DNA from: Escherichia coli
GTDB lineage: Bacteria; Pseudomonadota; Gammaproteobacteria; Enterobacterales; Enterobacteriaceae
NCBI RefSeq assembly: GCF_003334785.1
Contig: NZ_QOWV01000022.1
Reading direction: 5' to 3' (one strand)
DNA: 54,561 nt
The notes beneath the pieces were generated by a model, which was not told the origin of the DNA, searched no databases, and worked only from the letters and a program-made list of their open reading frames with translations. Every line of letters starts with the position of its first letter. Position 1 is the stretch's first letter. Of this stretch, positions 50,701 to 53,500 are shown in pieces. Both the position numbers and the translations under genes were made by a program.

Positions 50701-53181
50701 ATAGGTTTTGGAAAGCGAGTTGCGATAGGCTCTGGATTATTTAACCTAGATGGTGAGATTATCAAAGGTGTGCATTTAATCGAGAAATCGCAGATTAGCT
50801 CAAGATTAATGGCTTTGGTTAAACGGGTCGAGCACGAGGCTAAGTTATTACCGCGTATTTCTAGCTTGTTGGAAGAACATGCATCTTGGTTAGGTGAGCA
50901 AGGTGTATTGATGCAATCTTACCGACAGGTGCGGAATACTCTCATTGCCTTGCAGGGATGGTTTATCAATCCAGATATATCATTAGAGCAGATGACTCAT
51001 TCCTCCGAGATTTTGCAAAACATAAACGATCTTCAGATATCCCTTGAAAATGACTCGTTACAGTTAGGGGCGTTTTTACAATTAACCCCATTGGCTTGCG
51101 GTGCGTATAAAAATAATCAACTGACGTTAGATACTATTAACGACACGCTGAATTTTGCCGAGCAACTGGTTGATAAGATAAATTGCGTATCCTTGGCTAC
51201 CCAGATCAGACATTTGGCTAGTGGTAGTGATTACGATTTACTATGTCGTGATGGTGGGGAAATAGTTTCGAAATGGAATGAACAGATTAAAAATGCTGAG
51301 TTATATGCGCTAGAAACAAAGTTAGAGCGGAGTCAGTGGCTCAAGTCGACTGATGGTTCTCTTAATACATTAATCGAGCGCAACGAAAGAGCAATACAGC
51401 AACCCCGTTGGTTGAACGGGTGGGTTAACTTTATTCGTTGTTACGAGCAGATGCATGAAAATGGATTGCAGCGAATCTGGAGTGCTGTACTTGCGGGCTC
51501 GCTCCCGATTGAAAAAGTTGAATTGGGTTTAGCATTAGCAATTCATGACCAGCTGGCGCGGGAGGTTATTCACATCCACCCTGAATTGATGAGAGTTTCC
51601 GGCTCACAGCGCAATGCTTTGCAGAAGTCATTTAAAGATTACGACAAAAAACTGATTGAATTACAACGTCAGCGGATTGCAGCAAAAATTGCTTGCCGAA
51701 ATATACCAGAAGGGAATTCTGGTGGTAAGAAAAGTGAATATACAGAACTAGCTTTGATCAAAAATGAGTTGGGTAAAAAAACCAGACATATTCCAATTAG
51801 GCAATTGGTTAACCGTGCATGTAATGCGCTGGTTGCAATTAAACCTTGTTTCATGATGGGGCCAATGTCAGCAGCTCATTACCTAGAACCTGGACGAATG
51901 GAATTTGATCTGGTGGTGATGGACGAAGCGTCTCAGGTGAAGCCAGAGGATGCATTGGGTGTCATCGCGAGGGGCAAGCAACTAGTGGTCGTTGGTGACC
52001 CGAAACAGCTACCACCAACCAGTTTCTTTGATCGAAGTGCCGACGGAGAAGATGACGATGATGCCGCGGCTTTAAGTGATACTGACAGCATTTTGGATGC
52101 TGCTTTGCCACTGTTTCCTATGAGACGTTTGCGTTGGCACTATCGTTCACGACATGAAAAGTTGATTGCATACTCTAACCGCCATTTTTATAACAGTGAT
52201 TTGGTGATATTCCCTTCCCCAAATGCTGAGTCTCCAGAGTATGGGATTAAATTTACCTATGTGTCAAAAGGTCGGTTCTCCAATCAACACAATATTGAAG
52301 AAGCCCAAGCAGTTGCTGAGGCCGTACTTCATCATGCGCAACACCGGCCGGGTGAGTCACTCGGGGTAGTGGCCATGAGTTCCAAGCAACGCGATCAAAT
52401 TGAGCGCGCTATCGATGAATTGCGCCGAAATCGCCCTGAATTTAACGATGCAATCGATGGCTTATATGCCATGGAAGAGCCACTTTTTGTGAAAAACCTT
52501 GAAAACGTTCAAGGGGATGAGCGTGATGTAATCTTTATTTCCTTTACCTATGGACCTTCTGAGCATGGTGGAAAGGTTTATCAACGCTTTGGACCTATCA
52601 ATTCCGATGTTGGCTGGCGTCGCTTGAATGTGCTTTTCACTCGATCAAAAAAACGGATGCATGTGTTTAGTTCAATGCGTTCTGAAGATGTATTGACGAG
52701 TGAAACCAGTAAACTTGGTGTTATTTCGTTGAAAGGTTTTTTACAGTTTGCCGAAAGTGGCAAACTAGATTCCCTCACAACGCATACCGGCAGGGCTCCA
52801 GATAGTGACTTTGAGGTTGCTGTAATGGAAGCACTCAATCACGCTGGGTTTGAGTGTGAACCTCAGGTAGGGGTTGCAGGATTCTTTATTGATCTAGCTG
52901 TGAAAGATCCAGGTTGTCCTGGCCGTTATTTAATGGGCATAGAGTGTGATGGTGCGGCTTATCACTCAGCTAAATCTGCTCGTGATCGTGACCGTTTGCG
53001 TCAAGAGGTTCTGGAGCGTTTGGGTTGGAGAATTAGCCGCATTTGGTCCACTGATTGGTTCAGTAATCCTGATGAGGTTCTATCTCCGATTATCCGTAAA
53101 CTCCATGAGCTTAAAACATTGGCTCCAGACGTTGTTGTACCTTCCTATGAATATGTCGAAACGATTGAGGTCAAGCGCTGA
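47764..53181 (+). CDS. Giant SF1 (Upf1-like) helicase fused to a Vsr/DUF559-type endonuclease domain; Hhe-like single-protein defence candidate
   Basis: About 1805 aa, GGAG ribosome-binding site before ATG 47764. Walker A IEGPPGSGKSQT, motif II VVMDEASQV, motif III VVVGDPKQLPPT, motif VI NVLFTRSKKRMHVF; C-terminal nuclease-like block YLMGIECDGAAYHSAKSARDRDRLRQEVLERLGWRISRIWSTDWF. Confidence 0.65.
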   Translation: MSTVDTSTAEELNQGGSDFILTSLEAMRKKLLDLTSRNRLLNFPITQKGSSLRIVDELPEQLYETLCSEIPMEFAPVPDPTRAQLLEHGYLKVGPDGKDIQLRAHPSAKDWAHVLGIRTDFDLPDSHKTVVSDSDRELLEKAHQFILQYAQGQNGKLTGIRSEYVNQGIALSALKEACCLAGYEGLEDFERQAKAGNEISISSSNSSHNDNRIQALLYPNELEACLRAIYGKAQTALEESGANILYLALGFLEWYESDSSEKARYAPLFTIPVRCERGKLDPKDGLYKFQLYYTGEDILPNLSLKEKLQADFGLALPLFNEEETPESYFASVKKVVEQHKPKWSVKRYGALSLLNFGKMMMYLDLDPARWPCDKRNILSHEVIRRFFTSQSCGQENSGLPGGFGRHEYCIDSYPDIHDKVPLIDDADSSQHSALIDAIRGQNLVIEGPPGSGKSQTITNLIAAALLNGKKVLFVAEKMAALEVVKRRLDRAGLGQFCLELHSHKTHKRKVLDDINARLVSQATMPTMEEIDAQILRYEDLKQQLNEYAALINNQWAQTGKTIHQILSGATRYRHKLDIDATALHIENLSGKQLDKVTQLRLRDQIVEFSRIYKEVREQVGANAEIYEHPWSGVNNTQIQLFDSARIVDLLQTWQTSIIDFQHSYQEYVDKWALEGESLNTLQYIEQLVEDQSNLPVLCGSEHFPALSELDSLDAIARVRHYLDRFELLQGHYVALSQVIEPQKLRLLEQGQSCDFPREELEKYGAAEDFTLRDLVRWLESIQSIHDELSSIYAQLNDFKNALPDGIASYIDDSQAGLLFCSELLSILGALPTELIRVRDPLFDDDDIDAVLRDLMCQIETLRPLRDGLSTLYQLDQLPSQEMLAHAVAVIQQGGLFAWFKSDWRSAKALLMAQSRKPDTKFAELKRCSADLLKYSELLQRFEQSDFGNQLGNAFRGLDTDCDQLMLLRDWYKKVRACYGIGFGKRVAIGSGLFNLDGEIIKGVHLIEKSQISSRLMALVKRVEHEAKLLPRISSLLEEHASWLGEQGVLMQSYRQVRNTLIALQGWFINPDISLEQMTHSSEILQNINDLQISLENDSLQLGAFLQLTPLACGAYKNNQLTLDTINDTLNFAEQLVDKINCVSLATQIRHLASGSDYDLLCRDGGEIVSKWNEQIKNAELYALETKLERSQWLKSTDGSLNTLIERNERAIQQPRWLNGWVNFIRCYEQMHENGLQRIWSAVLAGSLPIEKVELGLALAIHDQLAREVIHIHPELMRVSGSQRNALQKSFKDYDKKLIELQRQRIAAKIACRNIPEGNSGGKKSEYTELALIKNELGKKTRHIPIRQLVNRACNALVAIKPCFMMGPMSAAHYLEPGRMEFDLVVMDEASQVKPEDALGVIARGKQLVVVGDPKQLPPTSFFDRSADGEDDDDAAALSDTDSILDAALPLFPMRRLRWHYRSRHEKLIAYSNRHFYNSDLVIFPSPNAESPEYGIKFTYVSKGRFSNQHNIEEAQAVAEAVLHHAQHRPGESLGVVAMSSKQRDQIERAIDELRRNRPEFNDAIDGLYAMEEPLFVKNLENVQGDERDVIFISFTYGPSEHGGKVYQRFGPINSDVGWRRLNVLFTRSKKRMHVFSSMRSEDVLTSETSKLGVISLKGFLQFAESGKLDSLTTHTGRAPDSDFEVAVMEALNHAGFECEPQVGVAGFFIDLAVKDPGCPGRYLMGIECDGAAYHSAKSARDRDRLRQEVLERLGWRISRIWSTDWFSNPDEVLSPIIRKLHELKTLAPDVVVPSYEYVETIEVKR

Positions 53182-53500
53182 AGTGGCGTCTGACTCAATT
53201 GATTCTCTTATGCCCAATTTGGGGCTTAAGGAGCAACTTAAGTATTTTGCCACACATGTCATTGAGGTTGAGCTTCCTAATGTTGATGCTGATTGTCGTT
53301 TGTTGCGGCCCGCAATGCTTGAGGCTTTGCTGGAACATCAGCCTTTATCACGTTCCGAGTTTGTTGAACGAATACCTCATTATCTGCGGCAAGCAACAGA
53401 TGTATACGAAGCACAACGCTTTCTTGACCGAGTCTTGGCATTAATTGATGGCGCAGAGGCTGAAGCGAATGATGCAGCGTTTGAGTCTGAATTGGCATAA
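53153..53500 (+). CDS. Short ORF overlapping the helicase stop in the +1 frame (possible split C-terminal domain or separate small gene)
   Basis: ATG at 53153; roughly 115 codons; helical acidic C-terminus (..RFLDRVLALIDGAEAEAN..). Confidence 0.3.
   Translation: MSKRLRSSAEVASDSIDSLMPNLGLKEQLKYFATHVIEVELPNVDADCRLLRPAMLEALLEHQPLSRSEFVERIPHYLRQATDVYEAQRFLDRVLALIDGAEAEANDAAFESELA

What the first reader, a model, noticed from the sequence alone, without database searches (positions are those of the whole stretch)
53140..53500. Helicase-nuclease C-terminus may be split by a +1 frameshift
The main frame stops at 53181, while an overlapping ORF in the +1 frame starts at 53153 and encodes about 115 further residues with a helical acidic tail. 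Proteins of this architecture usually end with a small C-terminal domain (DUF3320). This could be a split gene from a frameshift mutation or sequencing error, or a genuinely separate small partner gene.
Basis: seen in the sequence. Interest (0 to 1): 0.35.

Follow-up and report, generated by a model that had tools for sequence, protein, structure and literature searches.

The report
Frameshifted Hhe anti-phage defence gene
A known single-gene E. coli anti-phage defence gene (hhe) carries one extra G that cuts off its last 109 residues, a small HRDC-like helical domain; this is an ordinary, real frameshift mutation, not a separate partner gene.

The parts
47764..53181 (+). 5' part of hhe: truncated CDS of 1805 aa (1802 native residues, then V-K-R and TGA). 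An alternative upstream ATG at 47752 gives 1809 aa.
   Evidence: ORF. NCBIfam Hhe_antiphage equivalog, 2623.5 bits against a cut-off of 2000, profile positions 1-1693 of 1797. AAA_11, AAA_12 and MTES_1575. DUF4011 on the identical protein; native through residue 1802.
53169..53170 (+). Site of the frameshift: GG here against a single G in intact alleles. This is a 1-base insertion, and which of the two G is the extra one cannot be told.
   Evidence: the only indel in 5.9 kb against NZ_CP025913; same result against two more intact alleles, and deleting one G restores a 1911-codon ORF; 255 of 255 complete genomes lack it.
53179..53181 (+). Premature TGA stop in the shifted reading frame
53171..53500 (+). 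Displaced 3' part of hhe (+1 frame), encoding native Hhe residues 1803-1911. The frame is open from 52946, with possible starts at ATG 53147, ATG 53153 and GTG 53183.
53222..53464 (+). HRDC-like helical domain (Hhe residues ~1820-1900), now cut off from the protein
53167..53185 (+). GAGG (53167-53170, created by the insertion), then TGA (53179-53181), then GTG (53183). This arrangement could allow termination-reinitiation of a 105-aa tail peptide. Speculative.
   Evidence: the only candidate start with an SD-like word upstream; the gene caller placed the start here.
45535..47577 (+). Upstream neighbour: DUF262/GmrSD-like protein, second of two. It belongs to the same defence island, not to hhe.
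   Evidence: annotation; PADLOC hits; GmrSD_N and GmrSD_C
53523..53693 (+). Downstream neighbour: 56-aa ORF that looks like the N-terminal fragment of a type I restriction R subunit (not searched). It ends where minus-strand IS3-family transposase sequence begins, so it is probably cut off by that element.
   Evidence: sequence. IS3-family transposase annotated at the equivalent place in relatives.

Best explanation
The region is the 3' end of hhe. Hhe is a known single-polypeptide anti-phage defence protein of about 1911 aa: an N-terminal DUF4011 region, an SF1 Upf1-like helicase (AAA_11/AAA_12), an MTES_1575/Vsr-like nuclease, and a small C-terminal helical domain. In this strain one G has been inserted at 53169/53170 (GAG to GAGG). 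The ribosome then reads three wrong codons (V-K-R) and stops at 53181. The last 109 native residues, including the whole C-terminal HRDC-like domain, are left in the +1 frame as an orphan ORF. Shown: the identity of the gene; the exact lesion; that it is a real allele present in several sequencing runs but in no complete RefSeq E. coli genome; that the tail is normally fused; and that the tail has an HRDC-like fold. Inferred: the product keeps the helicase motifs and the nuclease glutamate but lacks a domain that in RecQ-type helicases modulates nucleic-acid and structure-specific binding. Defence is therefore probably weakened or lost, so this is a decaying defence gene. IS-disrupted hhe alleles in other strains fit that picture.
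For: Gene identity: NCBIfam equivalog NF042953 at 2623.5 bits (cut-off 2000) for the truncated ORF and 2739 bits for the intact orthologue. PADLOC Hhe covers 1-1911 of the orthologue, and the small ORF maps to 1801-1911. RefSeq annotates the orthologous locus as 'hhe'. Lesion: the single extra G is the only indel against three intact alleles, and deleting it gives a 1911-codon ORF with 5-10 amino-acid differences. Rarity: 255 of 255 complete genomes with the site are 80/81 identical with a one-base gap. Reality: the exact 1805-aa product and the exact 105-aa downstream ORF occur on 4 Logan contigs. SRR1840539_278 and ERR4578769_89 (the latter contig seen in 6 samples) show 0 mismatches to the window over 9737 and 10481 bases, including GAGG. 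Fusion is the norm: in 46 representatives of at least 1200 aa the tail match ends within a few residues of the C-terminus. Single-gene system and nuclease dependence: bioRxiv 10.1101/2024.10.10.617714 and 10.1101/2022.06.16.496414 (E1731A abolishes defence). That glutamate (IECDG, E1727 in RefSeq numbering, or 1731 counted from ATG 47752) and the Walker A motif at residue 447 are retained. Tail fold. Other decayed alleles carry IS3, ISKpn26 or IS100 insertions or truncations.
Against: No functional data exist for a tail-less Hhe, so loss of defence is inference only. The allele persists in several sequenced samples, which would also fit a neutral or still-functional variant. I could not see the reads themselves. 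The samples might be one strain sequenced repeatedly, although the SRR and ERR prefixes suggest two submitters.
Confidence: 0.92

Rival explanations
1. The split allele still works as a two-piece system. The truncated helicase-nuclease is made, and the HRDC-like tail is translated separately by termination-reinitiation at GTG 53183, which lies 1 nt after the TGA stop and 12 nt after the GAGG created by the insertion. The tail then acts in trans, or is dispensable.
For: Stop and restart geometry, and the only SD-like word in front of any candidate start. The gene caller predicted this 105-aa ORF, and it contains the whole predicted HRDC-like fold. All recognised catalytic domains and the nuclease glutamate are retained. 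The allele is seen in several samples.
Against: No family member examined has a conserved split. All 46 long representatives are fused, and the stand-alone copies are remnants or another frameshift. The 12-nt SD spacing is longer than optimal. From general knowledge, HRDC domains normally act in cis. No expression data are available.
Confidence: 0.1
2. Sequencing or assembly error: the real genome has an intact hhe.
For: It is a single-base indel that no complete RefSeq E. coli genome shares. Such singletons are often errors.
Against: The same extra G sits in contigs assembled from other sequencing runs, SRR1840539 and ERR4578769 (the latter contig in 6 samples), which are 100% identical to the window over about 10 kb. 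The site is G to GG, not a long homopolymer of the kind that produces systematic indel errors.
Confidence: 0.04
3. Programmed +1 ribosomal frameshift or another recoding event that yields full-length Hhe from this sequence.
For: The +1 frame is open across the junction (52946..53500), so a shift anywhere in that overlap would fuse the two parts.
Against: Essentially all orthologues encode the protein in one frame without the extra base, so there is no conserved recoding site. The sequence ATT GAG GTC AAG CGC TGA has no slippery run and is not a prfB-like CUU-UGA context.
Confidence: 0.01
4. A genuinely separate, conserved small partner gene downstream of a naturally shorter helicase-nuclease.
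For: Short proteins of 70-200 aa matching the tail are numerous in the representative library (75 of 150 hits). One distant homologue (L011) also shows a 1800-aa gene followed by a 124-aa tail ORF.
Against: Many of the short hits begin inside the nuclease domain (RIWSTDWF...), so they are contig-end fragments. L011 is split by a different lesion, a 1-nt deletion in an A-run about 25 codons upstream. P0004 is a 3' remnant next to an IS transposase. P0010 and P0047 are tail remnants with no helicase upstream. The E. coli orthologues are single 5736-nt genes.
Confidence: 0.01

Closest known systems
Hhe anti-phage defence protein (NCBIfam NF042953 'DUF4011 domain-containing anti-phage protein Hhe'; PADLOC PDLC02194). 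From my own knowledge, first described by Gao et al. 2020, Science.
   Same: Orthologous locus and the same genomic context (DUF262 pair upstream, IS3 and yecA downstream). 99.7-99.8% nucleotide identity to intact alleles. Same domain order: DUF4011, AAA_11/AAA_12 helicase, MTES_1575 nuclease, C-terminal tail.
   Different: One extra G truncates the protein at residue 1802 of 1911 and orphans the C-terminal domain. There is also a private R1844C change in the orphaned part.
HRDC domains of RecQ-family helicases and RNase D/Rrp6 (Pfam PF00570; PDB 1wud, 2rhf, 1d8b, 2e1f)
   Different: No significant Pfam HRDC match (best member E 0.094). Foldseek E is about 1.5 and the hhalign E is only 0.048. 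The host helicase is SF1 Upf1-like, not SF2 RecQ. An extra N-terminal helix precedes the bundle.
DUF3320 (PF11784), the C-terminal wHTH module of MTES_1575-type helicase-nuclease proteins (Anantharaman et al. 2013, PMC3710099). The ProA anti-phage protein (NF058533) is a related long helicase-nuclease.
   Same: Same position in the architecture: a small domain directly after the MTES_1575/Vsr-like nuclease at the end of a DUF4011-type helicase protein. Hhe aligns with the ProA model over the helicase and nuclease.
   Different: The Hhe tail does not match DUF3320 (0 of 45 members). The ProA model alignment stops at Hhe residue 1794, before the tail. The predicted fold is all-helical and HRDC-like, not a winged helix.
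Defence-gene pseudogenes in E. coli defence islands (IS-disrupted or truncated hhe alleles)
   Same: The same gene is disrupted in other strains by IS3, ISKpn26 and IS100 insertions or reduced to 3' remnants.
   Different: Here the lesion is a point insertion near the 3' end that leaves 94% of the protein intact.

Membership tests
Hhe (single-gene anti-phage defence) | Score above the curated cut-off of the NCBIfam equivalog model NF042953 | tested here: met
   2623.5 bits against a cut-off of 2000 for the truncated ORF. The small ORF matches the model's last 93 positions (E 5.8e-28).
Hhe (single-gene anti-phage defence) | Domain order DUF4011, SF1 helicase (AAA_11/AAA_12), MTES_1575/Vsr-like nuclease | tested here: met
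   AAA_11, AAA_12 and MTES_1575 (E 1.1e-36). DUF4011 precomputed on the identical 1805-aa protein. Walker A at residue 447 and the IECDG glutamate are present.
Hhe (single-gene anti-phage defence) | One uninterrupted ORF of about 1911 aa including the C-terminal tail | tested here: not met
   the ORF is broken at residue 1802 by a 1-nt insertion. It is a frameshifted allele of hhe, a member by descent but not an intact gene.
Hhe (single-gene anti-phage defence) | Confers protection against phage | not testable with these tools
   Protection is reported for intact Hhe only. Nothing is known for this allele.
DUF3320 (PF11784) | Match to the Pfam DUF3320 profile | tested here: not met
   no hit at E <= 10 for the 115-aa ORF; 0 of 45 family tails match.
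DUF3320 (PF11784) | Winged helix-turn-helix fold (as described in PMC3710099) | tested here: not met
   helices only, no strands; the best fold matches are HRDC domains.
HRDC domain (PF00570) | HRDC fold (compact helical bundle of about 75 residues) | tested here: met
HRDC domain (PF00570) | Significant sequence-profile match to HRDC | tested here: inconclusive
   1 of 45 members at E 0.094; hhalign E 0.048 with 24% identity over 75 columns against the E. coli RecQ HRDC. Foldseek E 1.5, probability 0.69.
HRDC domain (PF00570) | Nucleic-acid binding or modulation of helicase substrate choice | not testable with these tools
   Needs biochemistry.
Programmed ribosomal frameshift | Frameshift site conserved among homologues, with a slippery or stimulatory sequence | tested here: not met
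   the orthologues are in one frame; no slippery run at the site.

The most novel reading that the evidence does not exclude
The single-G insertion has turned hhe into a working two-piece system. It creates a GAGG Shine-Dalgarno-like word 12 nt upstream of a GTG that lies 1 nt past the new stop codon. The HRDC-like domain would then be re-initiated as a separate 105-aa peptide that assists the truncated helicase-nuclease in trans or frees it from regulation. A more modest second reading is more likely, at about 0.7: the Hhe clade is defined by an unannotated HRDC-like C-terminal domain where its relatives carry the DUF3320/wHTH module.
Probability: 0.08. Interest if true: 0.4.

Novelty: already known. 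Interest (0 to 1): 0.15.

Why it matters
For annotation, the two ORFs should be recorded as one frameshifted hhe pseudogene or variant, not as a helicase plus a hypothetical protein, and this strain should not be counted as carrying an intact Hhe system. The lesion also provides a natural C-terminal truncation. It removes only the HRDC-like tail and keeps the helicase and nuclease, so it could be used to test what that tail contributes to defence. The HRDC-like assignment of the Hhe tail, in place of DUF3320, is a small annotation gain.

Tried and rejected
(1) DUF3320 identity of the tail was rejected by Pfam scans of the ORF and of 45 family tails. (2) A profile of the tail against PDB sequences found nothing useful (only a chance SMC5 hit at E 0.44). 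(3) The word-indexed protein search with the tail returned only fragments and small ORFs and no full-length proteins, so it could not answer the fused-or-separate question; the exhaustive representative search did. (4) P0028, a 6182-aa protein with 22 matching stretches, looked like a giant array of this domain. It is an AHNAK-like repeat protein matching by composition, and the family profile gives no domain hit. (5) I took R1844C (53294) as a possible sign of relaxed selection in the orphaned tail. It lies one residue before the conserved RLLRP motif at a variable position, and one change proves nothing. (6) The stand-alone tail ORFs P0004, P0010, P0030, P0044 and P0047 were examined as possible conserved partner genes. 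P0004, P0010, P0030 and P0047 are remnants or an independent frameshift. The P0044 contig (1052 nt) is too short to judge. (7) I first recalled Vassallo et al. 2022 as the source of the Hhe name, but that paper does not contain the term. From memory the name comes from Gao et al. 2020, which I could not check here. (8) A literature search for Hhe together with HRDC found nothing relevant.
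Full report
**Observation.** A long + strand ORF, 47752..53181 (1809 aa), ends at a TGA at 53179-53181. A second ORF in the +1 frame is open from 52946 to 53500 and holds an ATG at 53153, which gives 115 codons. The small product is acidic (pI 4.7) and predicted helical. A 184-codon open alternative frame is unlikely by chance (about 1.5e-4). Homology makes chance irrelevant in any case.

**What the gene is.** Pfam finds AAA_11, AAA_12 and MTES_1575 (a Vsr-like restriction endonuclease fold, E 1.1e-36) in the last 1199 residues of the long ORF. DUF4011 is on record for the identical protein. The long ORF scores 2623.5 bits against NCBIfam equivalog NF042953, 'DUF4011 domain-containing anti-phage protein Hhe', whose cut-off is 2000. 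It covers profile positions 1-1693 of 1797. The 115-aa ORF covers positions 1705-1797 of the same model (E 5.8e-28). In PADLOC the small ORF matches Hhe positions 1801-1911 of 1911 (E 3.7e-61). The two ORFs are therefore consecutive pieces of one known protein.

Published work describes hhe as a single-gene system with helicase and nuclease domains (bioRxiv 10.1101/2024.10.10.617714). It is reported to act against lambda, T3, T7 and PhiV-1 and to depend on a nuclease glutamate, E1731 (bioRxiv 10.1101/2022.06.16.496414). That glutamate is the E of IECDG. It is residue 1727 counted from 47764 and residue 1731 counted from the upstream ATG at 47752, and it is retained in the window.

**The lesion.** Megablast of 52600-53700 against 5,426 complete E. 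coli genomes gave 302 hits. The best ones span 1100 bases against the 1101-base query and lie entirely under one 'hhe' CDS.
- Alignment of the whole gene to the intact allele of NZ_CP025913 (5736 nt, 1911 aa) shows 16 substitutions and one indel. The indel is an extra G at window 53169/53170 (GAGG here, GAG there).
- Two further intact alleles give the same result (NZ_CP053736 and NZ_CP070902).
- Deleting one G restores a 1911-codon ORF that differs from the intact proteins at only 5-10 residues.
- As it stands, the protein is native through residue 1802, then reads V-K-R and stops. 109 native residues are lost.

**Real mutation or error?** An 81-base query centred on the site hit 255 complete genomes. 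All were 80/81 identical with a one-base gap and none was 100% identical, so the allele is absent from complete RefSeq E. coli genomes.

The exact 1805-aa truncated protein is nevertheless present in the 15-billion-protein collection, on four contigs of Logan assemblies of raw sequencing runs.
- Contig SRR1840539_278 is identical to window 44764..54500, with 0 mismatches in 9737 bases, GAGG included.
- The 105-aa downstream ORF, as called there from GTG 53183, is also on four contigs.
- One of these is ERR4578769_89, a contig recorded in six samples. It is identical to window 44020..54500, with 0 mismatches in 10481 bases.

Assemblies made from other read sets, under SRA and ENA accession prefixes, thus reproduce the base. 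The site is not a long homopolymer. I conclude that this is a real, rare allele.

**Is the tail ever a separate gene?** An exhaustive HMMER search of 1.84 billion cluster representatives with the 131-aa tail gave 179 hits. Of the 150 listed, 46 are proteins of at least 1200 aa, and the long proteins listed carry the match within a few residues of their C-terminus. One of the 46, P0028, is spurious (see 'Context and things seen in passing'). Many short hits begin inside the nuclease motif (RIWSTDWF...) and are contig-end fragments.

I examined the stand-alone-looking cases one by one.
- P0004 is an hhe 3' remnant next to an IS transposase.
- P0010 and P0047 are tail remnants with no helicase upstream, lying next to an HNH_5 gene and an MmeI-like enzyme respectively.
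- P0030 (L011) follows a 1800-aa Hhe-like gene but is split by a different lesion. This is a one-base deletion in an A-run (AGAAAG to AGAAG) about 25 codons upstream of the E. coli site.
- The P0044 contig is too short to judge.

There is no conserved two-gene arrangement.

**What the lost domain is.** Pfam finds no DUF3320 in the 115-aa ORF, even at E <= 10, nor in any of 45 aligned tails from the family (alignment A1; scan). The NCBIfam ProA model, a related long helicase-nuclease, aligns with Hhe only up to residue 1794. DUF3320 is described as overlapping a winged helix-turn-helix module after the MTES_1575 nuclease (PMC3710099).

The evidence for an HRDC-like fold instead is as follows.
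- An AlphaFold2 model of the tail built from A1 is confident (pLDDT 95-98 over tail residues 40-120) and purely helical.
- Foldseek ranks the same two domains first, but not significantly (E about 1.5, target-normalised TM 0.64).
- hhalign of A1 against the E. coli RecQ HRDC sequence (checked against 1wud) aligns end to end at 24% identity with E 0.048.

The tail is therefore best described as an HRDC-like domain. The structural support is good and the sequence support is weak. I found no paper linking Hhe to HRDC in the held library.

**Mechanism and consequence.** Shown: the insertion, the premature stop, retention of the helicase and nuclease modules, and loss of the HRDC-like domain. Inferred from general knowledge of RecQ-family HRDC domains: the tail probably contributes to nucleic-acid or structure-specific recognition or to regulation. 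The truncated protein is therefore likely impaired or altered in defence.

Decay of hhe is common. Among 309 complete genomes with hhe sequence, most carry an intact 5736-nt gene, but sampled rows show IS3, ISKpn26 and IS100 insertions, 5' truncations and 234-nt remnants.

One rival deserves mention. The insertion itself creates GAGG (53167-53170), and a GTG lies 1 nt after the new TGA. This is the only candidate start with an SD-like word upstream and the start the gene caller chose. Termination-reinitiation could in principle yield a 105-aa peptide containing the whole HRDC-like fold. Nothing tests this, and I give it about 0.1. Programmed frameshifting is excluded by the lack of conservation and of a slippery site.

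**Context and things seen in passing.** The window is E. coli chromosome (fliC, fliD, amyA, uvrC) running into the tRNA Gly-Cys-Leu cluster (18529-18830). An island follows, with integrase genes, a type I R-M system interleaved with YecA-like, cold-shock-domain and M48 genes, IS remnants, two DUF262/GmrSD-like genes and hhe. After hhe comes a 56-aa ORF that looks like an HsdR N-terminal fragment (53523-53693), which ends where IS3-family transposase sequence begins. The 22-stretch hit P0028 is an AHNAK-like repeat protein matching by composition only.

**Verdict.** This is an ordinary pseudogenising or truncating mutation in a known defence gene, and interest is low.

Noticed in passing
window 53523-53693 and 53694-54561: A 56-aa ORF ([45 protein letters not shown]...) looks like the N-terminus of a type I restriction R subunit. 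It ends where minus-strand IS3-family transposase sequence begins (ORF 53721..54329), so it is probably cut off by that element. The same junction exists in related genomes (L001, L007). The HsdR identity is judged by eye and was not searched.
   Followed up: partly
E. coli genomes NZ_CP032892, NZ_CP147053, NZ_CP024228, NZ_LR883050, NZ_CP101005 and others: hhe is independently disrupted in other strains by IS3, ISKpn26 (IS5-like) and IS100 insertions, truncated at the 5' end, or reduced to a 234-nt 3' remnant. About 309 of 5426 complete genomes carry hhe sequence.
   Followed up: partly
L011 6960-7010 (ENA ERZ15271648 contig_38): A distant Hhe homologue (tail 44% identical) is also split into a 1800-aa ORF and a 124-aa ORF, by a different lesion. 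This is a one-base deletion in an A-run (AGAAAG to AGAAG) about 25 codons upstream of the E. coli site. It may be a real mutation or a long-read homopolymer error.
   Followed up: partly
L002 59-445, L003 142-528; L013 5920-6312: Tail-only (HRDC-like) ORFs of 128-130 aa sit with no helicase upstream, directly in front of an HNH_5 gene (L002, L003) or an MmeI-like restriction enzyme in a defence island (L013). In L003 the ORF start lies in a 37-nt direct duplication (acgtcgccagctaaaaatgcaccctgtgagggcttac). They are probably remnants of replaced Hhe-like genes.
   Followed up: partly
window 53294: A T here (C in all three intact alleles compared) changes Arg1844 to Cys in the orphaned tail, one residue before the conserved RLLRP motif. 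The top complete-genome hits also lack it (99.8% identity is the ceiling).
   Followed up: partly
window 47752 and 47764: Two in-frame ATGs could start hhe (MENIMSTV...). RefSeq starts at the second. The published mutant numbering (E1731A) fits the first, since the IECDG glutamate is residue 1727 counted from 47764.
   Followed up: yes
P0028 (representative library): A 6182-aa protein matched the tail in 22 stretches. It is an AHNAK-like eukaryotic repeat protein (PDVDVKGPK... repeats) and a compositional artefact; the family profile gives no hit.
   Followed up: yes
window 18529-18830 and 19864-47577: The hhe island lies downstream of a tRNA Gly-Cys-Leu cluster. It contains integrase-like ORFs (one annotated as a tyrosine recombinase in L007), two adjacent DUF262/GmrSD-like genes (44088-45542, 45535-47577) and a type I R-M system. 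The R-M genes are interleaved with YecA-family, cold-shock-domain and M48 metallopeptidase genes (34131-43433), an unusual operon make-up that I did not examine.
   Followed up: no
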